64,000 nucleotides of DNA. It comes from Auanema rhodensis (taxonomy: Eukaryota; Animalia; Nematoda). Where the stretch lies: the NCBI GenBank assembly GCA_964057225.1, contig OZ059899.1, positions 4,340,001 through 4,404,000 of the forward strand. The letters are read 5' to 3'. The translations under genes and the position numbers were made by a program. This document shows, piece after piece, positions 11,504 to 42,826 of the stretch. Positions within the stretch are counted from its first letter, which is position 1. Each line of letters opens with the position of its first letter. The notes under the pieces were generated by a model, which was given only the letters and a program-made list of their open reading frames with translations, had not been told where the DNA came from and made no database searches.

Positions 11504-11558
11504 TATCGAATCTAGTGATATTGTAGAAAAATGTAATGTCAGCTCCATAGGTTTTCTC
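11504..11558. other. 55 bp of non-array, non-LTR DNA between the array and the BEL/Pao 5' LTR
   Basis: Array match ends at ...cctcttaatca (11503); the LTR begins tgtcgcgata at 11559; the intervening sequence matches neither. Confidence 0.85.
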
Positions 11559-11898
11559 TGTCGCGATAAGCGAGTGAGTTTGTATAATTTTTTATCTTCA
11601 ACAATTGTTTTATTTGTTTCTCCTGTTCTCTCTCTCTCTCTCTCTTCTTTCTTCTTTCTTCTAACTTCCTGAGTGATTTTTATCCATACCACATGTTGTG
11701 TTATACATGTGGCATGACTAACTCTTTGTTTCAGGCTGACGACCGCCCACGAGAAGAGATCAGTCTTACATTTTCAACGTTCGCAGTCAGTGATTTTATT
11801 CCGTGCTTGTCTTGTTAATTCATCAATAAACCCTTTTCTACATATTCGCTTTGTGTTTTACTTCCAACCATACTATACACTTGTGGTATATCGCCACA
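11559..11898 (+). repeat. BEL/Pao 5' LTR (340 bp)
   Basis: Starts TGTCGCGATA, ends TATCGCCACA (9/10 inverted match); AATAAA near 11826; (TC)n tract; followed by the PBS; first ~140 bp repeated at 20981. Confidence 0.93.
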
Positions 11899-11901
11899 AA
11901 T

Positions 11902-11913
11902 TGGTGCATCGGC
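11902..11913 (+). promoter_or_regulatory. Primer-binding site, likely tRNA-Gly(GCC)
   Basis: TGGTGCATCGGC lies 3 nt after the LTR and is complementary to the recalled animal tRNA-Gly(GCC) 3' end ...GCCGATGCA-CCA. Confidence 0.8.
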
Positions 11914-12186
11914 TAGTTTAGATCTTAGCCGCTTTAAGTCCCGCGTGGCAGGTGAGATACAACTCGAACCAAGCGTGTTTGAGCAAAAAACATACTTAAT
12001 AAAAATCGTGGCGATCATAAGTCCACGTCAAGTCACACCAAACAGACTTGAACAATAAGCAAACTCTGAAATTAGAAACAGAGGTTTCAATTTCCTTACG
12101 TTCACATATACTGTGATCACCAAACAAACAAAGAAAAAAGAAAACAAAAAAGGAATATAAGCATTATTCCTACATCTACAACAAAA

Positions 12187-17700: not shown

Positions 17701-20147
17701 GATGCAACACTAGCAACAACAAAATCATAGAAGACAACTCACACATAGTCCAAGAAAATAATAGCTCAACAGATAGAATAGCACATACTGATACCGTATT
17801 AGACAACATACACTCCGATCATCATATAGAACATACAGATGAAACAATACATGAGAACAATAACATAAATGATAGCAACCATAATTACGATATTGCATAT
17901 GAATCAGACAACTCTCAACATGATAATACATACACTCCAGAAACAGAGAATAATGAGGATGCAACAAACGATCGACCTCAAAATAAAACAAAACTATCAT
18001 CAGTGAAAACAGCAAAATATACAGAACAAGATGAGGTCACTGAGAAGGAAAATATAAAAGCTTTCCCACTAAAAATGTCCTATGCCACACACCAAAGAAA
18101 AAATAAAATAAACCCAAAAATAGCAGCTGACATAATGAAAGCCCTTTCATTACCGATTATAATTACTTCGACATATGCCGAAGAAATCAATAGTTGCAAG
18201 GACTCTAACATGTTCACCACAAAACTTATAGCGAATCCTCATTGCTCCCCAGAAATGGCAACATGGACAGTGATAATAACCATTATGGCAGTTACCCTCA
18301 TAGTCTCTTGTCTATGCCGCATGGGCTACAGCCAATATAGATATAAGATATGGTCCAAAAACACTCAAACCATGCTCAACATCATGAAATTAAAACATAA
18401 AACAATCTCCGAACAAGAAGATCATGAAACTGATCAAAAAATAACAGAAGACCACAATGATACGTTGCAATTAAAACAAACGAACACACAAGACGCTAAT
18501 ATTGTGGATCATGAAACCTTTCAAAAGCATATTTACCCTATTCTAAACCATACGAGAAAGCCACCAAAATTCTCTCTCTTTACTAGAGGGTCGCAAACAT
18601 CTTTACCATCGTTACTGGCAATCATCTTGGCTTTATGTATTGGAAGCTGCAGTTCATGTTCCGATGTTCATGTTCAACACTTCGTTAACATACGATGCGA
18701 TGACAACTTAGCTTGTTATCACGAATACAGTCAAGATATCATATTTTCTCCCGGAACAAAACAATTATGCATTACCATAACGCATTCTAATCATGAAATT
18801 GGTCAATTTAAAATAACTAAACTATATACTGAACATGTCTGCCAAAAGAATACTAGATACTTCACTAGACAGACAACCGTCAACATATTGAGCATATTAC
18901 GATGCCGTCACCGGGGCTCGTGTGACGGAACATGTGAAACTAACTCGCTCCATAATAAAATCGAGGAACTACAACCATATACGTTCCCTTCACAATCAGG
19001 TTGCTTCACATCGTCAGCGAGATTTTACACATGTCCTATGATTTGGACAGATCCTTGTCTTTTTTACAAAATAGAGCATATACCCGTCACTGAGGAAGTA
19101 TACGAAGTCTATACTTGTGATAGTTGGTCCACCCAAACCGTATTTAATATAGAAACAACATTACTCCAGCAGAAAAATAATTACAATATCACTCTACAAC
19201 CTTACACGAAAAATCGTGAACAACTTTTCAATATAACAACGTTATCACAATCACAACCTCCTCCAAAAATGTACACAAAATTATTTTTTTCCTCCAAAGA
19301 AAACACGTACATTACGGATATACACACAAAGGGAATATTTCAATGTGCAACAGAGGAAGCCGCATTAAAACATTTTAATAACTGTACAGTATCCTCATTC
19401 TGCCCTTGCACATTCAATAGATTTGATGAAATAAAATGTAGGTGTGATACCCCTACTTTTGAAAAAATGTCCAATACATCAGACATAAAATCTCCTAACC
19501 AAAACTTTAAAACTAAAGATAACACGTTATCATTCTCTACGAATTTAGACGAAAATTTAGTTACGGTCGATTCATCCCTATTCTTAAACTCAGTGATTTT
19601 CTCCAACAATTTGCCTTGCGCACCTGCCCTGACAAAACTATCAGGTTGCTACTCCTGCGGGCAGGGTGCATTCGCAGAATTCCAATGCCTTACGGCAGAA
19701 GAAACATGGATTTCTATCGAATGTCAAAAAGAAGTATTCATGATAAAATGCTCTCCAAAAGTAGCAATCACAAAAGTAACAATGAAAAGAGAAAATTCTC
19801 AGATTGATGAATTATGCTATACCACATGCGACAATAAAAAAATTAAGATCATTATTAAAGGAATATTACATCACATAGCAAGCATAGATGAAATAAACGA
19901 AAGTGACTCAAGTAAGGGTACAGAATCCAAATCCATTGACTTCGCTCCAATCTTCAAGTTAATTTTATCAAAGTTGGGAATCATATTGATAGGCGTTGCA
20001 ATAACCGCCACCATAGGATATCTGGCATGTACACCCATCATGTACTGTGTAGTTTTGAATACAGTCTTAACCACACAATGGATAGCTACCAGGATATTCA
20101 CACTGTGGATAAAATCAAAAGCCTTATTTCGGGATCAAAGATTTTAA
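17169..20147 (+). CDS. env: Integrase C-terminus fused to an env region ending in a phlebovirus Gc-like class II fusion glycoprotein (Gc approx. 18657-20147)
   Basis: Internal signal LLAIILALCIGSCSS/CSD; Cys pattern CQKNTRYFTR, RCRHRGSCDGTC, CLFY, YEVYTCDSW, LSGCYSCGQGA typical of phlebovirus G2/Gc and nematode BEL/Pao env; C-terminal transmembrane segments. In the intact element this would be the end of the polyprotein. Confidence 0.88.
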   Translation: MSLDDLHTAIVKIEAIINTRPLTHPHPDNLDALPIRPIDFLTSAIKFSLPENNDNTHIFDIHSDIQTIQSTEQALEALQLSEDSASKFWTRFQEEYLTSLKDIFKHKNKRKNHTNLFPHKDEIVIIQNDMSPRGTWKLGRIIETITSSDGNIRSAKVATSNGNIITRSINQLYPLEIRCNTSNNKIIEDNSHIVQENNSSTDRIAHTDTVLDNIHSDHHIEHTDETIHENNNINDSNHNYDIAYESDNSQHDNTYTPETENNEDATNDRPQNKTKLSSVKTAKYTEQDEVTEKENIKAFPLKMSYATHQRKNKINPKIAADIMKALSLPIIITSTYAEEINSCKDSNMFTTKLIANPHCSPEMATWTVIITIMAVTLIVSCLCRMGYSQYRYKIWSKNTQTMLNIMKLKHKTISEQEDHETDQKITEDHNDTLQLKQTNTQDANIVDHETFQKHIYPILNHTRKPPKFSLFTRGSQTSLPSLLAIILALCIGSCSSCSDVHVQHFVNIRCDDNLACYHEYSQDIIFSPGTKQLCITITHSNHEIGQFKITKLYTEHVCQKNTRYFTRQTTVNILSILRCRHRGSCDGTCETNSLHNKIEELQPYTFPSQSGCFTSSARFYTCPMIWTDPCLFYKIEHIPVTEEVYEVYTCDSWSTQTVFNIETTLLQQKNNYNITLQPYTKNREQLFNITTLSQSQPPPKMYTKLFFSSKENTYITDIHTKGIFQCATEEAALKHFNNCTVSSFCPCTFNRFDEIKCRCDTPTFEKMSNTSDIKSPNQNFKTKDNTLSFSTNLDENLVTVDSSLFLNSVIFSNNLPCAPALTKLSGCYSCGQGAFAEFQCLTAEETWISIECQKEVFMIKCSPKVAITKVTMKRENSQIDELCYTTCDNKKIKIIIKGILHHIASIDEINESDSSKGTESKSIDFAPIFKLILSKLGIILIGVAITATIGYLACTPIMYCVVLNTVLTTQWIATRIFTLWIKSKALFRDQRF

Positions 20148-20437
20148 AAGCATAAGAGAAGAATTTCTTGTGGAGATAAAATTTAAAATTAAAAATTGAA
20201 ATAATAATGAAACAAAAGAAAAAGAAAGCATTATGTACGAATATAACCATTGTAATAAAACAATATCATTGTTTTTCTTTCTTTTCAATTTATGGTAGTA
20301 TCAAGTTTCTTTTATCAGTTACATAACACATAACCTTTTGTACAGGCTCTAAAATTCATTGTATCTGTAACAAGATAACCTAAACACACCATTGTACAAT
20401 AAACTAATAGATGTTAATCAGCGTTTAAAGTCCAGAT

Positions 20438-20950
20438 GTGAACATGTATATAAGGATGCAGCTCATGTTTCTCCTATATTCCATGAAAATGGAAGATATT
20501 GTCTCGAATATAATTGAGAATGCTTCCTTTGAGGAAGAGCTCAAAAAATATTCCCATCTACCTAACACTGCTGCCAATCTGAGGCAACTAATTGTGCTTG
20601 AAAAGAGGCTCTACGAGCACCTAGCTAGCGCGGTGAACCATCTATCCGAACGACTGGACAATATTCAACATTCGTTAAATCTGAAACTAGACAATTTGAC
20701 CATTCAGACTGCTCCTAAAGCTTCATGTGTATTCTGCAATAAACCGACAGCTGATGGGCACCGTACTGCGGCCTGTCCGATTTATCCTTCCTCACCGGAA
20801 CGCACTCTCCGTCTTCATGAACTGGGGTTATGCATCAGATGTTTGAATCAAAAACATCCAGCGATTTGCGAGGTATCCTGCTATAGATGTAAGGCGGATA
20901 CGCATCATGGAGTGGTTTGTGGTGATATAAAACGTAAAAGACCTTTGTAG
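20438..20950 (+). CDS. Accessory ORF with helical N-terminus and three Cys/His zinc knuckles (true start probably one of the ATGs at 20444-20489)
   Basis: CVFC-x7-H-x4-C, CIRC-x4-H-x3-C and CYRC-x4-HH-x3-C motifs; basic C-terminus KRKRPL; ends 30 bp before the 3' LTR. Confidence 0.8.
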   Translation: MNMYIRMQLMFLLYSMKMEDIVSNIIENASFEEELKKYSHLPNTAANLRQLIVLEKRLYEHLASAVNHLSERLDNIQHSLNLKLDNLTIQTAPKASCVFCNKPTADGHRTAACPIYPSSPERTLRLHELGLCIRCLNQKHPAICEVSCYRCKADTHHGVVCGDIKRKRPL

Positions 20951-20972
20951 GCCTTCTTCTCATTCCCGCATT

Positions 20973-20980
20973 GCCGGGAG
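20973..20980 (+). promoter_or_regulatory. Short polypurine tract of the BEL/Pao element
   Basis: GCCGGGAG lies immediately before the TGT of the 3' LTR. Confidence 0.65.
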
Positions 20981-21046
20981 TGTCGCGATAAGCGAGTGAG
21001 TTTGTATAATTTTTTATCTTCAACAATTGTTTTATTTGTTTCTCCT

Positions 21047-21080
<34 letters not shown>

Positions 21081-21139
21081 TTCTTCTTTCTTCTAACTTC
21101 CTAAGTAATTTTTATCCATACCACATGTTGTGCGCCACA
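20981..21139 (+). repeat. BEL/Pao 3' LTR, internally deleted (159 bp)
   Basis: Matches the 5' LTR up to ...cacatgttgtg, then jumps to the terminal cgccaca; the equivalent of 11701-11891 (191 bp) is missing; (TC)14 versus (TC)9; two G>A differences. Confidence 0.92.
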
Positions 21140-30100: not shown

Positions 30101-30734
30101 TTTTTGTTTTAATCATTTTGTAAATCTCCTGAAAAAAAATATAGAAAAGTAAAGAACTTGAAGAATAAAACCAAAACTACTGTTGGAGATATGGGGAATC
30201 GAACCCCAGATTTCTCGCATGCAAAGCGAGAGCTCTACCCCTGAGCTATATCCCCACATTCGACAGAATATATGACTGTGAGTTTGTTCAAACTTGAAGA
30301 ACCTCTTGATCAAAAATTTTAGTTGTGAATATTAATCTCCTAATCTAATTTTTGTTTTAATCATTTTGTAAATCTCCTGAAAAAAAATATATAGAAGTAA
30401 AGAACTTGAAGAATAAAACCAAAACTACTGTTGGAGATATGGGGAATCGAACCCCAGACTTCTCGCATGCAAAGCAAGCGCTCTACCCCTGAGCTATATC
30501 CCCACATTCGACAGAATATATGACTGTGAGTTTGTTCAAACTTGAAGAACCTCTTGATCAAAAATTTTAGTTGTGAATATTAATCTCCTAATCTAATTTT
30601 TGTTTCAATCATTTTGTTAATCTCCTGAAAAAAAATATAGAAAAGTTAAGAACTCGAAGAATAAAACCAAAACTACTGTTGGAGATATGGGGAATCGAAC
30701 CCCAGACTTCTCGCATGCAAAGCGAGCGCTCTAC
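21140..30734 (-). repeat. Tandem tRNA-Ala(TGC) array, segment 2 (~38 complete genes plus the 3' part of the interrupted gene)
   Basis: 248-bp periodicity; first tRNA at 21257-21328. Confidence 0.97.
30680..30734 (-). pseudogene. 3' part of the tRNA-Ala gene split by the gypsy insertion (includes TSD copy CTAC at 30731-30734)
   Basis: tRNA sequence stops at ...gagcgctctac and resumes at 42806 with ctacccctgagc. Confidence 0.95.
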
Positions 30735-31100
30735 CGTTCCATTATGCTGCTACGTATATTGAACAGACCATTGTAGTCTGCTCAACTACGCGTATAGTAT
30801 TCCATAAGTGTAGCGGTCTGGAAACAGAGCATAAGGATTACATAAGATAAGGAAATATATAGGTTTATTATACACAATACAATATCATTACAATACAATA
30901 ACACAAGGATAAAGTAAACTACATTTACAAGACAAAGACTAATATATAAGATTAACTAAGTTAGATGCAAACCGTCCATGGGCTTGCAAAGGGGCGAACT
31001 CCCGAATAGGGGCATGAGGGAAGGCGGTGCCATTCCTCATTCCTCTAGTCGGTCTGGCTCTAACCCTGCAGTTACATATATAGAGTCTCCGAATGGAACG
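30735..31100 (-). repeat. Gypsy element 3' LTR (366 bp)
   Basis: Direct repeat of 42440-42805 with two substitutions seen; 9-bp terminal inverted repeat CGTTCCATT...AATGGAACG; minus-strand AATAAA at 30864-30869. Confidence 0.96.
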
Positions 31101-31111
31101 TGCCCTTTTTC
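31101..31111 (-). promoter_or_regulatory. Polypurine tract of the gypsy element
   Basis: Minus strand GAAAAAGGG-CA lies directly before the 3' LTR. Confidence 0.75.
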
Positions 31112-31801
31112 AAAGATTGTCGCGACCTCGCGATATTTTAAACAAAAATTTGGGCTTATATGTAACTGAGTTTTAGAGTTCAATTGTTTTAGCTTCACAA
31201 TAACTATAGTATGATAGAGTTTTAGTTAGTATACAAACAAAATTACAATAATTTATAAGAAGGGTTCAATATAATATGAAGTGACGATGAATTAGAATAT
31301 TATTAATTTCATAAATTAATTATCTTAATATTCAAGCATTTCCTAATAGAGATTGTAGAATAAGGGGCTAGTAATGAATGGGAATATGTTATTATTTTGA
31401 CTAATGGTCTCAAGAAGTACTCATTTCTAAATTGAACCGAGATTATGATTTAATAATGTGTCTCCATATGTCTCCCAGAGTGAATCCTTGATTACTAATG
31501 GAGACTACCACTTAAGATGAAATTGTGGTTGATACGCCTACCAGTGTTTATCTCATCTTATTTGGAGAGGCACATGGAGCTCGGATGGTTGTCAAAATGT
31601 CCTCTAGTCCGCATAGGATTACGGTAACTTGGAACCATTAGTCATAACATCTCCTCGTTTAGAATTTGTCTTATTTTTCCTTTCTCAATCTCTATTAAAT
31701 GCTATTTTTATTTTGAATGTTATTTAGCATTAATTTTTTTTTTTTTCTAATTCATCGTTATTTTGTTACAATAATTTAAATAACGTAGCATTATCTTGTT
31801 G

Positions 31802-32875
31802 TTATTCTTCTTCATTCCTCGGAAGCCATATTTCGTCTTCATTTTCATCTTCTGGCTCTGTATCTATGCTATCCTTGTTGTTCCTGTTGATCACTTCTAT
31901 TATTTCGATGTCGCTATCTTCTTCTGCTTGACTTTCTCGAAACCTTGCGCGAGTGTTGTAAGAGATGTTTTGTGAAGCAGGAGAGAAGATTTTCAAGTTA
32001 TCTTTGTGGATATCTTGTAGTTTTCCTGATGAATTTCTGATTTGAACTTTTGATCCTTCTACGTTGATGACTTCGTATGGTCCATCATAGCTTTTCCGAA
32101 GCTTTTGGCCGATTTGGTGTGATTTTATAGTCGTCATCACCATGTCGCCCGGTTGAATGTCTCTATGGTGTGCTCTTTGCGTTCTATCTTTCTTCTTTTT
32201 CGCATTTTCTTGATTTTTAGCTATGCGGTTCTTTATTATTTCGTCTCTCTTGTCCATATCTGGTCTTCTTTGGAGTAATTCTTCAGAAATTTCTTGAATT
32301 TTGGTGATCGTTTCTGGTAATTCAGCGTCCATTGACATTCTGCATTCTTTACCGAATAATGCAATGTATGGCGCAATCCCTGTAGTCGCGTGCTGAATAT
32401 TGTTAATAGCAAAAGTGATTTTTGGTAATACAGTATCCCAGTCACTAAGGTCCTCTTTTAAGTAGTGGGTTAATCCTTCTTCGAGGGTTCTGTGAAGTCT
32501 TTCCACTTGTCCATTTGAGTTTTTTTGGTGTGGTAGTGTTGGTTCATGTTTGATTCCAAGTTTAGTACACATTTCTTCGAACTTTTTAGATACAAAGTTC
32601 GAACCTCTATCGGTGATCAAGCGATGGGGTGGTCCAAAAATGTAAACGAAATGTCTTAGAAATCGGTCAATTGTGATTTCCGTTGTTATTTGTGGTACAG
32701 CAATTGTTGTTGACCATTTTGTAAATGCGTCTTGCATGGTAATGACGTAGGTACAGTTTCTTTTTGAAGGGGGAAATGGTCCCATTACGTCCATGTGGAC
32801 TCGTTCAAATGGCTTGCTTGGTATCTCAAAATGACCTATTGGTTGTACCGTCATGGAATGTGGATCTTTGAGCAC
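31802..32875 (-). CDS. Integrase catalytic core and C-terminal domain, separated from the polyprotein by a frameshift near 32860
   Basis: PFERVHMDVMGP, ITDRGSNF, NGQVERLHRTLEE (D-D-E) and YDGPYEV (GPY/F); the HHCC domain is at the end of the upstream ORF. Confidence 0.92.
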   Translation of the reverse strand: MLKDPHSMTVQPIGHFEIPSKPFERVHMDVMGPFPPSKRNCTYVITMQDAFTKWSTTIAVPQITTEITIDRFLRHFVYIFGPPHRLITDRGSNFVSKKFEEMCTKLGIKHEPTLPHQKNSNGQVERLHRTLEEGLTHYLKEDLSDWDTVLPKITFAINNIQHATTGIAPYIALFGKECRMSMDAELPETITKIQEISEELLQRRPDMDKRDEIIKNRIAKNQENAKKKKDRTQRAHHRDIQPGDMVMTTIKSHQIGQKLRKSYDGPYEVINVEGSKVQIRNSSGKLQDIHKDNLKIFSPASQNISYNTRARFRESQAEEDSDIEIIEVINRNNKDSIDTEPEDENEDEIWLPRNEEE

Positions 32876-35800
32876 ATTTAATGCAGTTCTTGATAAATAT
32901 AGTAATGTCGTTCTGCATATTTGTCCAATAGAATCTTCTTAGAATTGCTTCTTTTGTTTTAATAATTCCTTGATGTGCTGCAATTGTAGGATCCTCATGA
33001 AAAACTTTGATTATTTCCTCAATTATGGGGTGTTCTTGTGGTATTACGATAGCGGGTTGTGGCTTTTTGTCTGTTGGTTTTGTATAGAGCAAGTCATTTA
33101 TGACACAATATCTGTCATTAGCTGTCATGTTCTTTTGTGCTCTATATTCAATCTCCGCTATCGTCCGTTTAATCCAAGGGGTGTTTAGTTGAATTTCCTT
33201 TATTGTTGGTGTATTTATGGCGTTAATGTGAATTTCTTCTATTTTCTTCTTCTTTGTTTCCGGCTTAGCATCGTTAGCTTCTTCACCTATATATCGAGAT
33301 AGAGCATCGCATACTTTATTTAATTGGCCTGCGCGATATTTTATTTCAATATCATATTCTTGGATGACCAGCTGGAACTTCGCAAGACGACCAAATAAGT
33401 CTCTGCGTGTCATTAAGCTGGTAAGGGGTCGATGGTCCGTAATACATATAGTATGAGTTCCAAGAATGTATGTACGGAATTGATTTAATGCATATACAAG
33501 GCCTAATGCTTCTATCTCGATTGGTGCGTAGTTACGTTCGGCTTTAACTAGTTTTCTGCTTGCAAATGCGATAGGGTGTAGATTTTTCAGAGGTTGTTTT
33601 GGATCTTCCGGTTGTAATAATACAGCACCTATGGCGATGTTACTACCGTCGCTTTCAACTATAAACAAGCGGTCCGATTTAGGTGGGCTTAAAACGGGTG
33701 CCTGTATTAAACTTCTTTTAAGGAGGTCTAAAGCTTCTTTATGTTTGTTTTCCCATTTGAATTCAGTATCTGCCTTTGTCAGATCGTATAAAGGGCTTGC
33801 GATACGTGCAAAATCTTTCATGAATTTGCGAAAGAATCCAACCATTCCCAAGAATGCTCGTACACCTGTTGCATTCTTTGGTGCCGGATAATCTTGTATG
33901 GCGGCGACTTTTTGAGGGTCAGGTTTTATACCTTGACGTCCTACAATAAGTCCTAGAAATTTCACTTCTGGTTGAGCAAAAGCGCATTTCTTAAGCTTTA
34001 TCTTCATTCCCAATTCTTCTACTGCTTGCAGTAAATCATCGATATCTTTGAGATGTTGTTCTCTTGTATCAGATATAACTAATAGATCGTCCAAATAAAC
34101 AAATAGTTTACAAGAACATTTACTTTGCAAATACCTTACTGCTGTTTGAAAGGTATGAGGGGCTCCACAAAGGCCCATCGGCATCCGTTTGTACTGGTAT
34201 GTGCCGGATGTGGTCGTAAATGCTGTTAGTGGTCGATCTGATTTTCTCAAGGATATTTGAAAAAATCCTGACACTAAATCGAAGTTTGAGAAAAATTGGG
34301 CGCCTGCTGCCAAATCAACTATGTCAGAAATGCTTGGAATGACATAAGTTTGCTTGCGTGTGACATTATTTAAAGCTCGAAAATCTGTCACAAACCTATA
34401 CGTGTCATCTTTCTTCTTAACTAGTACTACAGGGCTATTAAATAGAGATGTAGAAGGCTCTATTATGCCTTGCTCAAGCATTTCTTTGACTTGTTTTTCA
34501 ATTTCTTCCTGTTTTCCTAAGGGAATACGTGTTATTCTCGGCTTTGGCATATCCATATCTGTTCTCAATGGTATGGTATGCTCTATAGGACCTTTAAATA
34601 AGCCTATTTTCCTGTCCTCGTTAAGAAATGCCTCACGATGGCTTTCAATTATTTTTGTAAGCTCATGTTTTTCTTCTTTCGTGAGATCAGCATTCTCTAG
34701 ATCAAGATCTTTTATGAAGTCTCTTGGAAAATATGGTAGTTTACTCTCCCAATCGGCTTCTGGCGGAACATATGGTAGAATTGGCTTATGCTTAAAGGGT
34801 TCACAAGCCGGAATTTCTCCAATTATTGCCTGTCCGATGACTGAATTAGCTTCCATAGCTATTGTTCCATCGGTATCGTTACGGAACATAACATATACTC
34901 CACTGGTATCACGAAACGCAGTTGGATATAATGATTTTAATGCGCTTCCACTATCCCCTAAGACAACCACTTCGTTAGATTCTAGTGGTTTATCTGTCTT
35001 TATTGGGATAGGTGCCTCTTCATCAGGCTTTAATGTTTTTGTTCTTAAATTAATGATATTCACAGTTATCTCCGTATGCTTAATAGATTCGTTTCCTATT
35101 AATGGGATGGCATTGTTTCCAATCTCCAACCTCTTCTTGGATGGTTTAAGGCTGACGTCGATGTTTTCGCTGTCAAGCGCTTTCATGAAATCTAGTCCAA
35201 TTAAAGCGGGAGCAGGACAGTCATGATCGTTTGAGACCAAAAAGGTATGTTCGATCTCGTAGCCGGCAATTTCAATTACAAGATTTATCTTTCCATAAAA
35301 TGTGAAAGTGGACTTGTTGGCTGCCATCGCTACTAAATGTCTCTTCTTGACATTTTCGGTCATGTTCAGATATTTGAGGGTGGAGAGCCTAACATATGAC
35401 ACTGATGAGCCTGAATCCCATAAAGCTAAAATCAGTTTATCTTCAACTGATATATATATTAATGGTAACTTTGTTTCCGCTGATGCAATAGAAGCAACAA
35501 ATGGTATTGCGATTGGAATAAATGTTACTAACGCAGGATAGTATTGCTTCATGATGTTATCTGGCATCTGTTGGTCTGGGCGGCTTACAAGTTCCAATGT
35601 TTCTTCATAGCCTGGGGGCTCATTATCTATTTCATGGACATGCATTACGGTTAGTGGAGTGGCTCTGAAGAACCAAAATTTAGCAACAACGAAAAGAATT
35701 ATTAATACTGCGGCAATCGTGACTATTGATCCTATAAAGATGAGTGTTCTCTCAATTGAACCTATTAGAAATTGTTTTACGCTAGTCCAGGCGGAAGTTG

Positions 35801-38800
35801 TGAACTCAGCTGCTTTAGAGATATAGTCACTGCCCTTTTTCAAAAGATTAAAGGCTGACGTAATCTTTGGATCGTTGTGAATAGTATGTAAAACATGGTT
35901 CTGTCGTATGGATGCTAAACTTGCTCCATATGCAATAGCTGTTGACATTGAGTAAACTCTCAATGATAAATTGGTGTATAAGTTAGCGCCTGTGAACTTT
36001 AAAGGTGTTAATTGGTGGTATTGCGCTTTATCAAAGAGTGATATTGGTTTTACTTCAACCGATCCATTTATATTTATCCATTCTCCATTTTGATAGTACA
36101 CATCTGTTGGTACATGTTCGCAATCTATCTCTTTTCCATGTGTTAATAAGTCTCTTGATCCTGGAGCAGCAAAATATAATCTCTCATCTTCTGTTATTAC
36201 TGGTGTTTCCAAATAGCATGTATCATTGATCTTATGATTATGATAAACAGCTTTAGGTTGAAGAGGTAAGCATATATGAACATGAACTATATCGCTGCCT
36301 ACGAAACGGGCTGCAATATCCTCTCTTCCTAAAATAGTCCTCATTGCTACTGTGGGTTCTATGTGTAAAATAGAACGCCATAGCTCGAGGTATCTATTTT
36401 GAATCTCACATATGGATTCATAAGATTCCATAAAATGTTTCTGTAGCTCTTCTTGTATGAGTGTTGTTGTATATTGTAGATGATCTTGAGCTATTCTGCG
36501 AGATACGTTGAGGTTGAATTGTATTTCGTTGTTCATTTTTGACGCTGTATACGTTGCCTGAGCCTGAATTTCTCTGGTTTCTACGGGTGGAGATGATGTT
36601 CTTTGTTTCCTTAAGGTTCGTGACGCCGTGTCAGTGACTGTTGCTAATGTTGTTGGCGAGAGAGTCGTAGTTATCACGGCTGTTGTCGTGTCAACTATGG
36701 TTGTCGTCGGAATCCGAGTCGTATAGCTTATAGTTGTCTCCTGAACTAGTGAAGCGGGTTTGTCCGTTGTTGTCGTTAATGACAGTCTTCTAGTCAGATA
36801 AGGCGGTGTTTCAATATCCTCTAACAGTGGTAAAAATGTTTTTATAAGTAGCTGGCGTGTATCCGCGCTTGGGGTTTGAATGCGAGGGTGGGGGCCCATC
36901 GATATACCGTAGTTAGAATCTTTATCTCGATATAGTTTGTTGGTATCTGGCACATTGATTGTTAATTGTCGGAACTTTTCATCATCTACGGCTGCTGCTG
37001 TTTTATTTGGCCTTATTACTCGCAATGTCATCAAGTTATGGTATAAGTAAAGTGTATTTCTAAGTACTATACGCTCATCAGCATTGTCAGTTGTTAAAGT
37101 TGGTCGGATAGGCGGCATGTTCACAAAGGATTTTAAAACCTCTTGCCTTGATGGTACCGACAGATTGTTTTCAAATATTACCGGTGTATAAGCTAGCTCC
37201 ATCGCTATGCTTTCGGCTCTTTCGCGGTAGGATCCGTCCTTTTCTAGTAGTTTTTCGTCAAATTCGTGTGCTGTTAATCTGTCACCTATCTGTTCTAATA
37301 ATTGTTGTGAGGTTAAATACCGTATAGCGCCGCGAGTGGTTGCTGCCAGTTCCTTTTGCGCAAGAAAATAAAGTATTGCTTCCTCAGGGTCGTGTATTTC
37401 GTATGTTTGAAGGAAACGTTGTATGGATTTATCAGATACGGGACTTCTTAAGAAGAAATAAAACTTCTCGGGATGTGCTGAAACCCAATCAATAATTGAA
37501 TATGAAGGGTTGACAGCTCGTCTGGCCTTTATAAGCGGTATTATCTGATAAATACCAGGATTACTCATCACCGGTCGTAAGAAAGGATAAGGACAAATAT
37601 TTAATATTAAAGTTTCAAAATCTTCCTGTTTTTGTATCCACTCCTTGTTTAATTCAACCGTGCATTCCGCAATTGCTCTTTTATCTCTTTTCGCCGGAAG
37701 TTTCTTATATTCTCTCTCTATTAAAACATGGATATTGGTGTCATTTGGGTACTGTGGTAAGAGAATGTAATTGCCAGTTGTGGTGTGGAAGATTGGCTGT
37801 TTAAAACAAGAAGATATTTGCTTCGGTATCTCTTTTTGATCGATTACAAGGGCTGATTGAGTGGTTGGTAACAGAATAATGCCGTCTCCAATTATCACAT
37901 CATATTCACTCATGTCGATATAGTTGCATCGATATTCATAAGGCTGTTTCTCCCATATGATGATTGAGGTATCTGATGCACATTCTCCATGATGCGCTAA
38001 GCATCCTTCAGTATTTAGTATTAAATTGGAGATTATAGTTTCATCTGGCATCCGTGTCATAACCCCTCTTTCGATAACCAATCTGGCTTTCTCTTCACAT
38101 AGTTCATTATTAAAAGATCGGCCTGGCGAGAAGGAAGGCTCGTCAGTTGCATATGTTATGCTGTCGATCTTCTTTAATTCACTCCAATTCCATCTTCTAT
38201 CTCTCACTGCCAGTCTGCATTCTGCAGCTGGTATCTTTTCAATTCTCGCTATCGTTGTATTGGTATCTCTAAGGAACAAAAGGTCTCTGATACACATTTT
38301 ATGAATTTCTTTGGAGCATCTCCATGCATCCCATTCATGTGCCGTTTGATTCCTTGTATAAAGATGAACTTTTGTTCGTAAGATATGCTTTATTGGTGGT
38401 AATAAGCATTTTCGGAGAGATGGGGGACGGAGAAGGGCTCCTCCAGTAGCTTTAGTACATAGCTGGTATGCTTCAGCTGTTGTAACCAGTGATAAGATTA
38501 CTGATAAAGCTACGGCTAAAGTCAAAGGAGATATCAGAGTCAAATTATTGACTCTTGAGCCTCTACCTCTGCCTCTATTGTTGTTATTTCCCCTAAAGGT
38601 ACTGTTATTTCTCTGTCTATTATTGCTCATTTCTTGATTTTGTGATGCATTATGGCTTCTTTGATACCCATTTTGATTTTGATTCTGATAATTTCGACCG
38701 CGGTCACCAAAATTGCAGTTCCTAGCAAATGGGTTTTGGAAATTCCAGCCTTTTTGATTTTTTGAAAATTTATGATAATTTTGATTGTTTTGAAAGTTTG

Positions 38801-40499
38801 GATGATAATTGTTATAATTATTATAATTTTGATAATTTTTATTATTAAAAGATTGATAACCTCTTGCCATACCTCTCCCACCATTGTTTCTGCGCGGGGG
38901 GAAAGTTCTTTCAATTGCGTTAACCAATAGCGCCTGAGGGTCTGCTACTTGGTTTGCAATTGATTCCTCCCAGCGAGCACTATCAACAGCCTCAGCAAAA
39001 GTTTTGGGTTTTGCTCGAATTACCCCTGGGCGTATCGTATTTTTCAAGCCTCTCAAAAATGTGGACCTCAGAATGTGATCTTTATGAGTATCACTATTAG
39101 AGAAAGCATTTAAGCTGAGGTTTCTTAACGTTTGTGCAAAACCATCAATTGATAAATCGCCTTGAGTGCTGTTTTGAAGTGTGATAAGGGCAGGGTCTTG
39201 ATTGTATTCGGGACACAGCTTGGATGTTAACTCTTCTATTAGGGTAACCCAAGGTCCAGCTGTTCTGACCTTGTCAGGTAGCTCTAAATAAGCTTCCTCT
39301 GCTCTATCATTTTTCAATAGTAATGGTAAAATAGTTAGTCTTTCGGGCATCACTAAGCCTAAGGCGTTAGAAAAGGTGTTAAACTTTGCCACGAAATCTC
39401 TAAAGTTACGACTTCCGTCGTATATGGGGCAATAAGGTGAGCTTAATGCGTGCGCAATGGTAGATTTACCAGCTCCCGGAAGACGTGGTGTCTCCGTCAT
39501 GGTTGGTATATCCTCAAGGTATGTGCGAGATGACGTAATCCCTTTACTGCCTGAGCTTCTCGCCGTTAAGTTCTTACCTCCCTTTTTCGAGTTACCAGAT
39601 GTTGGATAACTAATGGTAGGGGCGGCTGAGGAGAACCGCTTCCCTGGGAGTTTGATAACTCGACTCGTTGCCTGAGGCGTCAAATGTATTGAAACGCTTG
39701 AGCTGGGTATAGCGCTATCTGACTTATTAAGGGTTGGGTTGGAGGATACGTGAAGAGAGTTATCAACTTGTTCTGTTGTTACCTCCCCTGGAGACAAATT
39801 CAAAACTTTTATTAAGCGAGCTGTTAAAGATTTCTTACTTTTGAACTTATCAGTAGTTAGTGATAAGGGCAAAACTTCGGTAATTTCCTGATTTGGTTCT
39901 ACGGGATTATTAGAGGTTGAGCGCCTACGCGGTGTATTAGTTTTTCTTTTATTAATCTTTTTAGAATCAAGCTTTTTCGAATCAAGCTTATCAGTGATAA
40001 CTGATAAGGGTGATTTGCGAATAGTGAGAGATGAGGTTTTATTAAGTTGTGAGTTTTCTATCGGAGTGGAAAATGCCTGCGGTGTTAGAGTTAGTTCAAA
40101 AGAAGATGCAAGATCGTTATCAGTATTAACTGATAAAGTTGATAAGTTTAGGTGGGGGGTGGCTGGTGAAGTATTAGAGGTTATTTGTTTTGGTTTTTGA
40201 ATTTTTTGAATCTTTTTATTACTTTTAAAAGAGTGTACCTTTGGAGTTGAAGCTGAAGTTTGAATATTGTAGTCCTGAATATAGAAATCAGGGTCCTCCT
40301 CGGTGTTGTCCGGAGGTGAATACGTGCCTTCTCGAGGAATGAAGGTTTTCTCGACTTTGGGTTTTACCTCTTGTTCAGGCTCTTCAATCTGAACACTGAG
40401 GAGTCGAGTGCGGCTTCTGGTTCGACTGGCGACTGCGATGTCGTCACTGGACTTAGAAGGGTATAGAGCAGGGACGGCCGAAGAGTATCTTCGTGCCAC
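32826..40499 (-). CDS. Gag-Env-Protease-RT-RNaseH-integrase(Zn) polyprotein (first ATG at 39500; listed start is GTG)
   Basis: Capsid-like region (YDGSRNFRDF...FLRGLK...PKTFAEAV), N/Q/R/G-rich tract, internal signal peptide ~38469-38537, Cys-rich ectodomain from 38468, TM ~35667-35744, LWDSGS protease ~35410, YLDD 34086-34097, RNase H, HHCC. Confidence 0.93.
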   Translation of the reverse strand: MARRYSSAVPALYPSKSSDDIAVASRTRSRTRLLSVQIEEPEQEVKPKVEKTFIPREGTYSPPDNTEEDPDFYIQDYNIQTSASTPKVHSFKSNKKIQKIQKPKQITSNTSPATPHLNLSTLSVNTDNDLASSFELTLTPQAFSTPIENSQLNKTSSLTIRKSPLSVITDKLDSKKLDSKKINKRKTNTPRRRSTSNNPVEPNQEITEVLPLSLTTDKFKSKKSLTARLIKVLNLSPGEVTTEQVDNSLHVSSNPTLNKSDSAIPSSSVSIHLTPQATSRVIKLPGKRFSSAAPTISYPTSGNSKKGGKNLTARSSGSKGITSSRTYLEDIPTMTETPRLPGAGKSTIAHALSSPYCPIYDGSRNFRDFVAKFNTFSNALGLVMPERLTILPLLLKNDRAEEAYLELPDKVRTAGPWVTLIEELTSKLCPEYNQDPALITLQNSTQGDLSIDGFAQTLRNLSLNAFSNSDTHKDHILRSTFLRGLKNTIRPGVIRAKPKTFAEAVDSARWEESIANQVADPQALLVNAIERTFPPRRNNGGRGMARGYQSFNNKNYQNYNNYNNYHPNFQNNQNYHKFSKNQKGWNFQNPFARNCNFGDRGRNYQNQNQNGYQRSHNASQNQEMSNNRQRNNSTFRGNNNNRGRGRGSRVNNLTLISPLTLAVALSVILSLVTTAEAYQLCTKATGGALLRPPSLRKCLLPPIKHILRTKVHLYTRNQTAHEWDAWRCSKEIHKMCIRDLLFLRDTNTTIARIEKIPAAECRLAVRDRRWNWSELKKIDSITYATDEPSFSPGRSFNNELCEEKARLVIERGVMTRMPDETIISNLILNTEGCLAHHGECASDTSIIIWEKQPYEYRCNYIDMSEYDVIIGDGIILLPTTQSALVIDQKEIPKQISSCFKQPIFHTTTGNYILLPQYPNDTNIHVLIEREYKKLPAKRDKRAIAECTVELNKEWIQKQEDFETLILNICPYPFLRPVMSNPGIYQIIPLIKARRAVNPSYSIIDWVSAHPEKFYFFLRSPVSDKSIQRFLQTYEIHDPEEAILYFLAQKELAATTRGAIRYLTSQQLLEQIGDRLTAHEFDEKLLEKDGSYRERAESIAMELAYTPVIFENNLSVPSRQEVLKSFVNMPPIRPTLTTDNADERIVLRNTLYLYHNLMTLRVIRPNKTAAAVDDEKFRQLTINVPDTNKLYRDKDSNYGISMGPHPRIQTPSADTRQLLIKTFLPLLEDIETPPYLTRRLSLTTTTDKPASLVQETTISYTTRIPTTTIVDTTTAVITTTLSPTTLATVTDTASRTLRKQRTSSPPVETREIQAQATYTASKMNNEIQFNLNVSRRIAQDHLQYTTTLIQEELQKHFMESYESICEIQNRYLELWRSILHIEPTVAMRTILGREDIAARFVGSDIVHVHICLPLQPKAVYHNHKINDTCYLETPVITEDERLYFAAPGSRDLLTHGKEIDCEHVPTDVYYQNGEWININGSVEVKPISLFDKAQYHQLTPLKFTGANLYTNLSLRVYSMSTAIAYGASLASIRQNHVLHTIHNDPKITSAFNLLKKGSDYISKAAEFTTSAWTSVKQFLIGSIERTLIFIGSIVTIAAVLIILFVVAKFWFFRATPLTVMHVHEIDNEPPGYEETLELVSRPDQQMPDNIMKQYYPALVTFIPIAIPFVASIASAETKLPLIYISVEDKLILALWDSGSSVSYVRLSTLKYLNMTENVKKRHLVAMAANKSTFTFYGKINLVIEIAGYEIEHTFLVSNDHDCPAPALIGLDFMKALDSENIDVSLKPSKKRLEIGNNAIPLIGNESIKHTEITVNIINLRTKTLKPDEEAPIPIKTDKPLESNEVVVLGDSGSALKSLYPTAFRDTSGVYVMFRNDTDGTIAMEANSVIGQAIIGEIPACEPFKHKPILPYVPPEADWESKLPYFPRDFIKDLDLENADLTKEEKHELTKIIESHREAFLNEDRKIGLFKGPIEHTIPLRTDMDMPKPRITRIPLGKQEEIEKQVKEMLEQGIIEPSTSLFNSPVVLVKKKDDTYRFVTDFRALNNVTRKQTYVIPSISDIVDLAAGAQFFSNFDLVSGFFQISLRKSDRPLTAFTTTSGTYQYKRMPMGLCGAPHTFQTAVRYLQSKCSCKLFVYLDDLLVISDTREQHLKDIDDLLQAVEELGMKIKLKKCAFAQPEVKFLGLIVGRQGIKPDPQKVAAIQDYPAPKNATGVRAFLGMVGFFRKFMKDFARIASPLYDLTKADTEFKWENKHKEALDLLKRSLIQAPVLSPPKSDRLFIVESDGSNIAIGAVLLQPEDPKQPLKNLHPIAFASRKLVKAERNYAPIEIEALGLVYALNQFRTYILGTHTICITDHRPLTSLMTRRDLFGRLAKFQLVIQEYDIEIKYRAGQLNKVCDALSRYIGEEANDAKPETKKKKIEEIHINAINTPTIKEIQLNTPWIKRTIAEIEYRAQKNMTANDRYCVINDLLYTKPTDKKPQPAIVIPQEHPIIEEIIKVFHEDPTIAAHQGIIKTKEAILRRFYWTNMQNDITIFIKNCIKCAQRSTFHDGTTNRSF

Positions 40500-41095
40500 T
40501 TTGGAATCACTCTTGGTTTGGAAAAACCGCGAGTGTTTCGTTATATGGGGGATGTTGACGTTGAATGAGTGACAAGAAATTCAGGTCGGTTATAGGGAAA
40601 AGTAAGAAAAGTTTGAAGATTGAGACGTGGCGTCTTTCGCCGAGAATCGTTATTAGATGAGAAAGAGTTTTAAAATCTTGGCCTGAGATCTGGCTCCGCC
40701 TATCTACCGTATTCTCTTTTCTTTATTCTTTTTCACAGATGTTCATCAATTATAAATTTTGTTGGTCTTCGCTCTTTCCAGCCTCAATCTTAATACTTTA
40801 CTCTAATTGAATTCTTGAAAGTATGAGAGAGATTTTCAGTCGTTTTATGTCCCCTTTTTATGCATAAGATTCTTTATATTTGTAGAGCTGAAGAAGGAAA
40901 AAAAATCAAAGAATGGCTTATGAAGGTCTATCGGGAATGACTTTTGTCTTGAGAAAGCTGTACGCTGACCTCGTCTTGTATGATCAAGACGAAGTGTTAG
41001 CTTATAGGCCTCACCCAGACATGAGTAAGATGGTTGGTTAAAACAAAGAAACATGTTATGTTAATAAGAATTTTTAGTTTATTGAGGATTTAAAG

Positions 41096-41446
41096 ATGCA
41101 TTATCTGGGAAGGGGATTAGTAAACTTCTCCCTAATGCAGGAAATAGCGGATGAGGTTGCAGCTATTGGGCGATGGTGCCTCACCGATTTGTGTGCGCAT
41201 TGGTATGAAAACCCCAATTTAATCGCATCCCCTTGGAATTGGTATGAGCATAAGCCTCATGATTTTCATGATTATATGTCTAAAATTTTGTTTAAAATTT
41301 ATTTGTTTTATGAACAGTCTCCTATGGGCTTATTGCTAAGGACCTCTGCGGATTCAGTGTATTCGCAGTATTTAGAGCCTAGCAATGAGCCCATCTCACA
41401 GCCTATAGAATTTGTGAGACAGTTGCATTTTAAATGGGGCTTTTAA
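41096..41446 (+). CDS. Possible antisense ORF (116 aa) inside the gypsy leader
   Basis: ATG start, 116 codons in AT-rich DNA, AATAAA 17 nt after the stop followed by a pyrimidine/T tract; no recognisable motif. Confidence 0.3.
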   Translation: MHYLGRGLVNFSLMQEIADEVAAIGRWCLTDLCAHWYENPNLIASPWNWYEHKPHDFHDYMSKILFKIYLFYEQSPMGLLLRTSADSVYSQYLEPSNEPISQPIEFVRQLHFKWGF

Positions 41447-42426
41447 CAATTGTTTTATATATAATAAATACTTAATTTCACTCATTTGTTCTCTCTCTCT
41501 CTTTTTTTTTTTTTTTTTTTTCATAACACAAACTTTGGTCGAGCTTATTAATAAAGAGGGAGTGCGTGCGCCTTGGGAAAATGGCTCATGTGCACGTTGA
41601 TTATTAAAAGCCGTGGGCGATTCTTTTCCGGAATGATTTTGGCATGCTAATGAGATTCCAAGAATATTTTAAAAAGATTGCTCATTTTACTAATGGACTG
41701 AGACCAAAGCTCGTTTATAAAACGCAATTTTTTTTTTCTTTAAACAATTTTACTAATTTATAGAATATTACAATATGAAGACTACGGTAGGTGTGTGGGA
41801 ATATCTTATGATGTTAGCAACAAAAATGAGCTGAGGAAGGTGACACATTCTACGGAGAAGAAAACATCCGTAGCCCATGTGCTTTCGCCAAAATGACCTG
41901 ACAGGCAATAAAATTTGTGCCAGGATTTTTCGGACTAGTGTGGTCTATTCTCACAATCAAAAAAAATAAAAACCGAATAACGGCTCCCGCAAAAATATTT
42001 AGTTAGCATGCTCTTTTACGCCTGAATTTAACTTTCAAATCTCTAGTCCTGACCACAATAAAATATTAAACTTTGTGCGCTTTCAAAATTTCATTCTAAC
42101 TCCTCGTTGCCAAATAATAATGTAATCAAAATTTCGTTTGGTGAAATTGTCCCCTATTTCGATCCAAACGTCCTCAAAAAAAAATGCAAGAGAAGCGGTG
42201 CAGGATACGGTATTATAAGGGTGGACACTCAGACGGTTTTATGAGTGGGGACAGCGGGTGAAATTTCAAAATTATATAGTCCTAGCTCTCTAAAAGAGAG
42301 ATCCCTTGTACCTGCACCTTATACAAGTTGGCGCCCTCATTATGTTGCTAACCGTGGAGGAAGTTTTCATTTAGATATCAAAATATGGACTTTTTATGCG
42401 AGTTTTTGCGACAAAAATGAGTTCGA

Positions 42427-42439
42427 GGTGGAACCTCCA
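42427..42439 (-). promoter_or_regulatory. Primer-binding site, tRNA-Gln
   Basis: Minus strand TGGAGGTTCCACC directly abuts the 5' LTR and is complementary to the recalled animal tRNA-Gln 3' end ...GGTGGAACCT-CCA. Confidence 0.85.
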
Positions 42440-42805
42440 CGTTCCATTATGCTCCTACGTATATTGAACAGACCATTGTAGTCTGCTCAACTACGCGTAT
42501 AGTATTCCATAAGTGTAGCGGTATGGAAACAGAGCATAAGGATTACATAAGATAAGGAAATATATAGGTTTATTATACACAATACAATATCATTACAATA
42601 CAATAACACAAGGATAAAGTAAACTACATTTACAAGACAAAGACTAATATATAAGATTAACTAAGTTAGATGCAAACCGTCCATGGGCTTGCAAAGGGGC
42701 GAACTCCCGAATAGGGGCATGAGGGAAGGCGGTGCCATTCCTCATTCCTCTAGTCGGTCTGGCTCTAACCCTGCAGTTACATATATAGAGTCTCCGAATG
42801 GAACG
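42440..42805 (-). repeat. Gypsy element 5' LTR (366 bp)
   Basis: Direct repeat of 30735-31100; adjacent to the PBS; followed on the plus strand by TSD CTAC (42806-42809). Confidence 0.96.
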
Positions 42806-42826
42806 CTACCCCTGAGCTATATCCCC
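42806..42826 (-). pseudogene. 5' part (nt 1-21) of the split tRNA-Ala gene
   Basis: ctacccctgagctatatcccc continues the gene interrupted at 30734. Confidence 0.95.

What the first reader, a model, noticed from the sequence alone, without database searches (positions are those of the whole stretch)
32826..40499. Gypsy-type element with a gB-like envelope embedded between gag and protease in one reading frame
Seen: a single stop-free frame ordered gag - internal signal peptide (LISPLTLAVALSVILSLVTTAEA/YQLC) - ~900-aa Cys-rich ectodomain - TM (LIFIGSIVTIAAVLIILFVVAKFWFF) - protease - RT - RNase H - integrase. Known: retroviruses and classical errantiviruses place env after pol as a separate spliced ORF. 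The segment ICEIQNRYLELWRSILHIEPTVAMRTILGREDIAARFVGSDIVHVHIC...CYLETPV...GSRDLL...DC resembles the core helix and crown of class III fusogens (herpesvirus gB, chuvirus G). Inference: the polyprotein is threaded through the ER membrane, leaving Gag and Pol cytosolic and Env lumenal. Signal peptidase would release Env from Gag, and Pol would start tethered to the Env tail, giving 1:1:1 stoichiometry and a packaging route without frameshift or splicing. This is a candidate for a distinct lineage of enveloped nematode endogenous virus. I cannot confirm that it is undescribed.
Basis: partly seen in the sequence, partly recalled or inferred. Interest (0 to 1): 0.93.

Follow-up and report, generated by a model that had tools for sequence, protein, structure and literature searches.

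The report
Nematode retroelement with built-in envelope protein
This is a young, retrovirus-like jumping gene, likely from a nematode, whose one long reading frame carries a herpesvirus-gB-like protein (predicted to fuse membranes) between its capsid and its enzymes; that gene order is already published, while its odd DNA ends, a likely non-standard start codon and a likely small antisense gene were not found in the papers searched.

Summary
The layout is real but published. On the minus strand one stop-free frame (32826-40580) runs Gag, internal signal, gB-type envelope, one transmembrane helix, protease, RT, RNase H and the integrase zinc finger. The integrase core lies in another frame, a break that looks specific to this copy. 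Pfam, PDB sequence and fold searches all point to class III fusogens. Of 151 homologues, 64 carry env before pol in one protein, so this is no one-off capture. Of 46 env-to-protease linkers, 43 hold exactly one TM-like segment, which puts Pol in the cytosol. Chary and Hayashi (PMC13524379) list 36 nematode GAG-ENV-POL gB-type elements and cite Sacco 2022; this scan noted the layout before in other genomes. Not found in the papers searched: CG...CG LTR ends; insertion inside a tRNA-Ala gene of a tandem array; a 1,246-nt AUG-free leader with an in-frame GUG; a spliced antisense ORF of 162 codons; a roughly 240-aa helical insert in Env with no fold match; recurring candidate protease sites beside both membrane anchors. 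Verdict: new member of a known kind, with modest new mechanistic leads.

The parts
42440..42805 (-). 5' LTR, 366 bp, ends CGTTCC...GGAACG (not TG...CA)
   Evidence: 364 of 366 bases identical to the 3' LTR; 9-bp terminal inverted repeat
30735..31100 (-). 3' LTR
42806..42826 (-). 5' part of the interrupted tRNA-Ala(TGC) gene, with the target-site duplication (42806-42809; 4 bp if the LTR ends are symmetric, 5 bp otherwise)
30680..30734 (-). 3' part of the interrupted tRNA-Ala gene, with the second copy of the duplication (30731-30734)
42428..42439 (-). Primer-binding site, tRNA-Gln type, directly behind the 5' LTR
   Evidence: 12 of 12 match to the Gln 3' end listed for Caenorhabditis GAG-ENV-POL elements
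31103..31111 (-). Polypurine tract
   Evidence: sequence
40913..41446 (+). Likely antisense gene: exon 40913-41032 (40 codons), 45-nt GT..AG intron 41033-41077, exon 41078-41446 (122 codons)
   Evidence: intron skipped in contigs of two RNA-like runs of one study and not in two DNA runs; phase 0, both exons open; no family or homologue
39501..40580 (-). Stop-free and AUG-free 360-codon leader in the Gag frame; candidate GUG start at 40499
   Evidence: 0 ATG in any frame over 1,246 nt; next longest run in the element 366 nt; codon-shuffle P 0.001
38553..39500 (-). Gag from the first AUG: capsid-like domain (38964-39308) and an N/Q/R/G-rich basic tail without a CCHC finger
   Evidence: weak Pfam hits; capsid region hits homologues
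38469..38537 (-). Internal signal sequence ending in A-E-A, preceded by a candidate protease site (V-N-N-L at 38552)
   Evidence: hydropathy; a hydrophobic 15-mer sits here in 56 of 58 homologue junctions; cleavage is predicted, not shown
37689..38468 (-). Env domains I/II, beta-rich
   Evidence: model pLDDT mostly 80-98
37677..37688 (-). Furin-type site RDKR
   Evidence: RTKR at the same place in P0002
36960..37676 (-). Helical insert of about 240 aa inside the Env linker
   Evidence: pTM 0.72 alone; hit by 6 of 151 homologues; no clear fold match
36540..36779 (-). Thr/Ser-rich mucin-like stretch
   Evidence: 38-47% S+T; low pLDDT
36057..36488 (-). Class III core helix and crown (gB domains III/IV)
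35667..35744 (-). Single transmembrane helix
35475..35666 (-). Predicted cytosolic linker with PPxY (35607-35618), YPxL and a weakly hydrophobic pre-protease stretch
35181..35450 (-). Aspartyl protease (DSG at 35417)
33945..34421 (-). Reverse transcriptase (YLDD at 34097)
   Evidence: closest solved structure Ty3 RT, E 1e-78
33354..33755 (-). RNase H
32862..33026 (-). Integrase zinc finger; the long frame leaves the integrase sequence just behind it
31802..32860 (-). Integrase core and C-terminus, in another frame
   Evidence: rve E 4e-16; motifs located

Best explanation
This is a young Ty3/gypsy LTR element of the published GAG-ENV-POL kind, likely from a nematode, whose single frame encodes Gag, a gB-type envelope and the enzymes up to the integrase zinc finger, and whose polyprotein is predicted to thread through the ER membrane so that Env faces the lumen while Gag and Pol stay in the cytosol. 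Inferred steps: (1) Gag is made in the cytosol, likely from a weak GUG near 40499 and, by leaky scanning, from the AUG at 39500. (2) The internal signal moves Env into the lumen; signal peptidase cuts after A-E-A, which leaves Gag tethered by the signal. (3) The one TM helix stops transfer, so protease-RT-RNase H-integrase hang on the Env tail. (4) Furin would split Env at RDKR, in front of a helical insert and a mucin-like stretch. (5) Membrane tethering and Env trimers would bring Gag and Pol together without a matrix domain or a frameshift, and would help the protease dimerise. The protease would then free Gag and Pol at V/I-N-x-hydrophobic sites beside both anchors. (6) Particles would bud, perhaps helped by PPxY. 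This copy has a frame break in integrase and would need help in trans to move.
For: Frame and domain order. LTRs 364/366, duplication, PBS, PPT. Class III: all 45 PDB sequence hits at E<=1 are herpesvirus gB, best E 5e-4; Foldseek gB E 8e-11; nyamivirus, chu-like and rhabdo-like glycoproteins from E 6e-15. Same one-protein layout in an Auanema sp. protein, 44-48% identical, and env before pol in 64 of 151 homologues, 19 also with a capsid hit. One TM-like segment in 43 of 46 env-protease linkers; signal-like segment in 56 of 58 junctions. Motif [VIL][NH]x[VILAT]: 63 in 46 tails against 12.2 shuffled (max 23), and 15 of 58 before the signal against 2.1. Selection: 14 of 22 listed substitutions in gag/env/pol are synonymous against 29% expected, P 8e-4; env 6 of 8, P 0.009. 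Published kind: PMC13524379.
Against: Nothing is shown at protein level. Topology rests on simple hydropathy sums with scale values recalled from memory; no SignalP or DeepTMHMM was available. A second hydrophobic stretch (1656-1674, KD 2.07) ending in A-S-A could act as a second signal in this element; it scores weakly and is weaker in P0002. The protease motif was defined after looking at these sequences, and the best matches near this element's own tail do not fit it strictly (one search lists none at 1612-1680). PPxY and YPxL are not enriched family-wide (2 of 46 each; shuffled 0.6 and 2.6); only P[TS]AP is (6 of 46 against 0.25), and this element lacks it. Whole-model TM-scores to gB are low (0.16-0.25, rmsd about 25 A), so the match is by domain. 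Homologues are predicted proteins whose DNA I could not see. Only 30 of 113 substitutions were classified (40 were shown, 10 lay outside these frames). The host is inferred.
Confidence: 0.75

Rival explanations
1. The long frame is the genomic RNA's frame, but most Gag-Pol is made from a spliced or otherwise shortened RNA that skips env, so the ratio is not 1:1:1 and Pol is packaged as ordinary Gag-Pol.
For: Nematode Gypsy elements do splice (Cer1/CERV, PMC10309623, passages). Equimolar Env per Gag looks wasteful (general knowledge).
Against: No joint between gag and protease in the two RNA-like runs, though their cover of these borders is patchy; I saw no clear TTTCAG acceptor when reading the DNA before the protease; signal and single TM are conserved as expected for a threaded polyprotein.
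Confidence: 0.12
2. The gB-type protein does not make infectious particles; it anchors Gag and Pol to ER or vesicle membranes for assembly inside the cell, or mediates transfer between neighbouring cells only.
For: No particle or fusion data here; PMC13524379 states that the way of entry is unknown for gB-type elements; late-domain motifs are patchy.
Against: The whole ectodomain fold with domains I/II, core helix and crown is kept, with a furin site and a synonymous excess; a mere anchor would not need it.
Confidence: 0.1
3. The stretch before the protease is a second signal sequence that sends Pol into the lumen, where it is destroyed, as a way to lower Pol relative to Gag.
For: Hydrophobic 19-mer, KD 2.07, ending in A-S-A.
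Against: Two prolines; crude insertion sum +3.0 against -4.3 for the true TM; +6.7 in P0002; only 1 of 46 linkers has two TM-like segments.
Confidence: 0.03

Closest known systems
GAG-ENV-POL 'ancient errantiviruses' with HSV/gB-type ENV in Nematoda (Chary and Hayashi, eLife 2026, PMC13524379; 36 nematode rows in Supplementary file 1, e.g. Clat_errantivirus_4, Ctro_errantivirus_1)
   Same: Order gag-env-pol, gB-type Env, LTRs of similar size, tRNA-Gln PBS directly at the LTR end (8 of 36 rows are Gln).
   Different: The main text has 0 hits for polyprotein, splic, frameshift and in-frame, so it gives no processing model. No Auanema element is in the master table, although two Auanema genomes were screened and gave ENV-POL hits. 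I saw nothing on LTR termini, insertion sites, antisense ORFs or a helical Env insert in the sections read; figures and figure supplements could not be read.
Non-canonical nematode ERVs of Sacco et al. 2022, J Gen Virol 103:1739 (not held; title and a one-line description seen in PMC13524379)
   Same: ENV and POL flipped in nematodes. Recalled from the abstract, not read: a continuous gag-env-pro-pol ORF and Env resembling nyamivirus glycoproteins, which fits the Nyavirus hit.
   Different: Recalled, not read: some members carry an extra small hypothetical ORF or a Upf1-like helicase. Whether the antisense ORF here is that small ORF cannot be told.
Atlas virus and Tas (nematode Belpaoviridae; PMC9094657, passages)
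   Same: Single Gag-Pol-Env polyprotein without stops or introns (Atlas); gB-like env in a nematode element (Tas). Eight of nine long hits checked are BEL/Pao elements (Peptidase_A17) with the env-like region behind pol.
   Different: BEL/Pao enzymes, env last; Atlas Env is class II.
Herpesvirus gB and Monjiviricetes/nyamivirus G (class III fusogens)
   Same: Beta-rich domains I/II, long core helix, crown, furin site in the II-III linker, one C-terminal TM.
   Different: Embedded in a retroelement polyprotein; linker of about 415 aa with a folded helical domain (family median 66 aa, 9 of 58 at 300 or more).

Membership tests
Ty3/gypsy LTR retrotransposons (Metaviridae) | Two LTRs, PBS, PPT, target-site duplication | tested here: met
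Ty3/gypsy LTR retrotransposons (Metaviridae) | Pol order protease-RT-RNase H-integrase with a Ty3-like RT | tested here: met
   best PDB hit Ty3 RT E 1e-78, far above caulimovirus and retrovirus RTs
Ty3/gypsy LTR retrotransposons (Metaviridae) | Placement among named reference lineages in an RT tree | not testable with these tools
   no GyDB/Repbase set; the tree holds 23 unnamed homologues only (P0001 groups with P0040 and P0003, 100/99)
GAG-ENV-POL HSV/gB-type errantiviruses (PMC13524379) | Order gag, env, pol with a gB-type Env | tested here: met
GAG-ENV-POL HSV/gB-type errantiviruses (PMC13524379) | Ectodomain between a signal and a TM | tested here: met
   hydropathy only
GAG-ENV-POL HSV/gB-type errantiviruses (PMC13524379) | Cysteine-bridge class (C1a/d, C2a/c in nematodes) | not tested
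   the figure that defines the classes could not be read
GAG-ENV-POL HSV/gB-type errantiviruses (PMC13524379) | Catalogue criterion for an intact copy: RT and integrase in a continuous ORF | tested here: not met
   frame break in the integrase of this copy; bears on this copy, not on the family
Non-canonical nematode ERVs (Sacco 2022; features recalled, paper not read) | One continuous gag-env-pro-pol ORF | tested here: met
   met up to the integrase zinc finger; feature recalled from the abstract
Non-canonical nematode ERVs (Sacco 2022; features recalled, paper not read) | Nematode (Chromadorean) host and RT monophyly | tested here: inconclusive
   only named homologue is from Auanema sp.; short intron with nematode-like acceptor; neighbouring BEL element with phlebovirus-like Env; no reference RTs
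Class III viral fusion proteins | gB/G-like domain fold | tested here: met
   domain-level match, low whole-chain TM-score
Class III viral fusion proteins | Trimer and membrane-fusion activity | not tested
   monomer model only; no assay
Belpaoviridae (Tas, Atlas) | BEL/Pao domains (DUF1759, Peptidase_A17, DUF5641) and env behind pol | tested here: not met
   none in P0001; all three in the neighbouring element at 11504-21135

The most novel reading that the evidence does not exclude
This element marks a sub-lineage of enveloped nematode retroelements with its own control layer: integrase recognises CG-3' instead of CA-3' ends and aims at tRNA genes; Gag is made in a long GUG-started and a short AUG-started form by leaky scanning; a spliced antisense gene encodes a regulator in the manner of HTLV HBZ; and the gB-like Env carries a new furin-exposed helical domain for receptor binding. 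Both Gag and Pol start membrane-tethered and are freed by the element's protease, a flavivirus-like way to package a retroviral particle.
Probability: 0.2. Interest if true: 0.65.

Novelty: new member of a known kind. Interest (0 to 1): 0.35.

Why it matters
The layout is known, so the headline is not new. How such elements build particles and enter cells is stated to be unknown (PMC13524379). This young copy gives concrete, testable coordinates: two membrane anchors, candidate protease sites, a furin site, a PPxY motif, a candidate GUG start and an antisense spliced ORF. If the tethered-polyprotein model holds, it is a retroviral packaging route without matrix domain, frameshift or env splicing. 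CG ends, if the rule in the family, would be a natural case of changed integrase end recognition.

Tried and rejected
No genome is held for the window, so copy number and other insertion sites could not be read. Whether the family targets tRNA genes stays open: one insertion only, tRNA genes are about 29% of the array unit, and the two other elements in the window sit in the spacer. Two scans of metagenome contigs found no relative. No RNA holder is on record; X12 and X13 are RNA by guess. No env-skipping joint was seen, on patchy cover. The N-terminal extension shows 1 synonymous of 4, and a copy-specific loss of an AUG at 40499 is not excluded, since 73 of 113 substitutions were not shown. 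The helical insert has no clear fold match: best Z 6.0 over 60 residues to a death domain, below the tool's trust level; none at E<=1e-3 in BFVD. The ESM Atlas gave no answer. An integrase search at E<=1e-40 found nothing. Literature searches; only PMC13524379 (with its preprint) holds 'gag-env-pol' with 'retrotransposon'. None of the listings showed CG termini, tRNA-gene insertion or antisense ORFs in nematode Gypsy elements; these were read as listings only. Sacco 2022 and a Ty3 processing paper were not held; that Ty3-type proteases cut after Asn/His in a hydrophobic setting is recalled. Rejected: one-off capture; BEL/Pao identity; Pol in the lumen as the rule; PPxY/YPxL as family-wide signals.


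Full report
Observation. The minus strand holds a 2584-codon stop-free frame, 32826-40580. Pfam orders it as weak capsid hits, Monjiviricetes_fusion E 7e-15 and Glycoprotein_B E 4e-9 at 1338-1481, aspartyl protease, RT, RNase H and the integrase zinc finger. The integrase core is in a second frame, 31802-32938, so 'integrase in the same frame' holds only for its first domain. Contigs of 4 of 4 laid runs differ from the window by an indel at the break. It looks like a lesion of this copy or its assembly; I did not test the frame of other copies.

The element. It spans 30735-42805, with 366-bp LTRs that differ at 2 places. The PBS follows the 5' LTR directly and equals the tRNA-Gln 12-mer listed for Caenorhabditis GAG-ENV-POL elements; a purine tract precedes the 3' LTR. 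The LTR starts with CG, fixed by the different bases in front of the two copies, and ends in the mirror GGAACG, giving a 4-bp duplication; a 5-bp reading with an asymmetric end also fits the letters. The element splits a tRNA-Ala gene in its D arm, inside a 248-bp tandem tRNA array. One insertion cannot show targeting. Fifteen public runs from 4 studies hold the stretch or part of it, 11 with half of the words or more.

The envelope. All 45 PDB sequence hits at E<=1 are herpesvirus gB. The AlphaFold model of 678-1585 (59 sequences, mean pLDDT 75, pTM 0.50) has beta-rich domains I/II, a helical block, a disordered Thr-rich stretch, a 74-residue helix and a beta crown. Foldseek returns gB at E 8e-11 and rhabdo-like, chu-like, nyamivirus and herpes glycoproteins from E 6e-15. 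Whole-chain TM-scores are low (0.16-0.25), so the match is by domain. Behind the furin-type site RDKR lies a helical domain of about 240 aa, pTM 0.72 alone, hit by 6 of 151 homologues and without a clear fold match. The II-III linker runs from 14 to 515 aa in 58 homologues, median 66, here about 415.

Relatives. An Auanema sp. protein has the same one-protein layout at 44-48% identity, insert, furin site, PPxY and YPxL included. A search of 1.84 billion representatives gave 394 hits at E<=1e-3; the best 150 plus P0002 were sorted. Sixty-four have env before pol in one protein (19 also with a capsid hit), 65 are env-only or fragments by my domain calls, and 22 lack the core-helix hit. Eight of nine long unassigned ones are BEL/Pao with env last. 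These are predicted proteins without DNA or names. Of the 40 substitutions shown (113 in all), 30 fell in the frames examined; in gag/env/pol 14 of 22 are synonymous against 29% expected, in env 6 of 8.

Topology and processing (inferred). A signal-like segment precedes Env in 56 of 58 junctions. Between Env and the protease, 43 of 46 linkers have one TM-like segment, 2 none, 1 two (crude scale recalled from memory). The second hydrophobic stretch here (1656-1674) scores weakly and looks like a family-wide pre-protease motif. Signal peptidase cuts lumenally (general knowledge), so Gag stays anchored by the signal until another cut. A motif [VIL][NH]x[VILAT] occurs 63 times in 46 tails (12.2 shuffled) and before 15 of 58 signals (2.1 shuffled); in P0001 it lies after the capsid, before the signal and between RNase H and integrase, among 6 matches. 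I read it as the element's protease site; the motif was chosen after seeing the data, and its likeness to Ty3 sites is recalled. Late-domain-like motifs are patchy: P[TS]AP 6 of 46 (0.25 shuffled), PPxY 2 of 46 (0.6), YPxL 2 of 46 (2.6).

Leader. The first AUG of the frame is at 39500. The 1,246 nt before it hold no ATG in any frame; the next longest such run in the element is 366 nt, codon-shuffle P 0.001, synonymous randomisation P 0.01. The in-frame GTG at 40499 has an A-rich context with G at +4, and several homologues have 100-320-aa low-complexity extensions before the capsid. Leaky scanning to two Gag forms is the simplest reading, unshown. On the plus strand a 45-nt GT..AG intron (41033-41077) is skipped in contigs of two RNA-like runs of one study and not in two DNA runs. 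It joins an AUG-started 40-codon exon to a 122-codon exon in phase 0. There is no homologue and no sign of selection in 4 substitutions; I put a real protein at about even odds.

What is known. PMC13524379 (read: abstract, sections 5 part 1, 6 part 2, 9 part 1, 14, 15, 22, term searches, all 36 Nematoda rows of Supplementary file 1, Auanema rows of file 6; figures not readable) reports that nematode, bryozoan and flatworm elements carry only gB-type ENV in GAG-ENV-POL order and credits Sacco 2022. That paper is not held; I recall that its abstract describes a continuous gag-env-pro-pol ORF and extra small ORFs. PMC9094657 (passages) gives the single-polyprotein Atlas virus and the gB-like env of Tas. 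PMC10309623 (passages) gives splicing in Cer1. This scan noted the same layout in other genomes. Claims of 'not found in print' rest, and unseen figure supplements and Sacco 2022 may hold some of it.

Verdict. Observation partly confirmed, interpretation partly supported, novelty claim not supported. New member of a known kind; interest 0.35, carried by the untested side features and by a concrete processing model for a group whose life cycle is open.

Noticed in passing
window 1-63649, outside the inserts: Tandem array of a 248-bp unit, each with a tRNA-Ala(TGC) gene on the minus strand; 174 BLAST hits to the unit and 151 exact tRNA 5' ends; 82 share one tRNA sequence.
   Followed up: partly
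window 11504-21135 (+): A BEL/Pao element with a phlebovirus G2-like Env behind integrase (E 2e-42), broken by stops and a frame change, with a small zinc-finger-like ORF at 20429-20950 and LTR-like repeats at 11559-11700 and 20981-21132; inserted in the array spacer.
   Followed up: partly
window 63650-64000: A third non-array sequence begins with TGTCGC, like the BEL LTR, again in the array spacer.
   Followed up: no
window 42413-42805, runs X1, X4, X13: Contigs match only the PBS plus the last 15-20 LTR bases, and one matches both LTR ends but not the middle; this suggests another LTR family with the same CG termini and PBS.
   Followed up: no
window 42421, runs X12, X13: Contigs leave the element just behind the PBS into another sequence, and LTR depth is well above internal depth; likely a second element or non-autonomous partner with this LTR.
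   Followed up: no
P0006, P0021, P0026: Three of 37 env-to-RT stretches hold two protease motifs in tandem (Pfam counts two stretches in P0006).
   Followed up: partly
P0079, P0105, P0117, P0120, P0132, P0141, P0142, P0151: The same Env family sits behind pol in BEL/Pao polyproteins, so it is shared between two LTR superfamilies in two positions.
   Followed up: partly
window 40834-40840 (+): A perfect TTTTCAG acceptor lies 73 nt before the antisense AUG, a possible trans-splice site, but two short out-of-frame AUGs lie between.
   Followed up: partly
window 34348-35226 (+): A 292-codon stop-free frame antisense to protease/RT; probably a shadow of the coding strand.
   Followed up: no
window 41478-41532: Long A/AG run in the leader right behind the antisense stop codon, a possible 3' end of the antisense transcript.
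   Followed up: no
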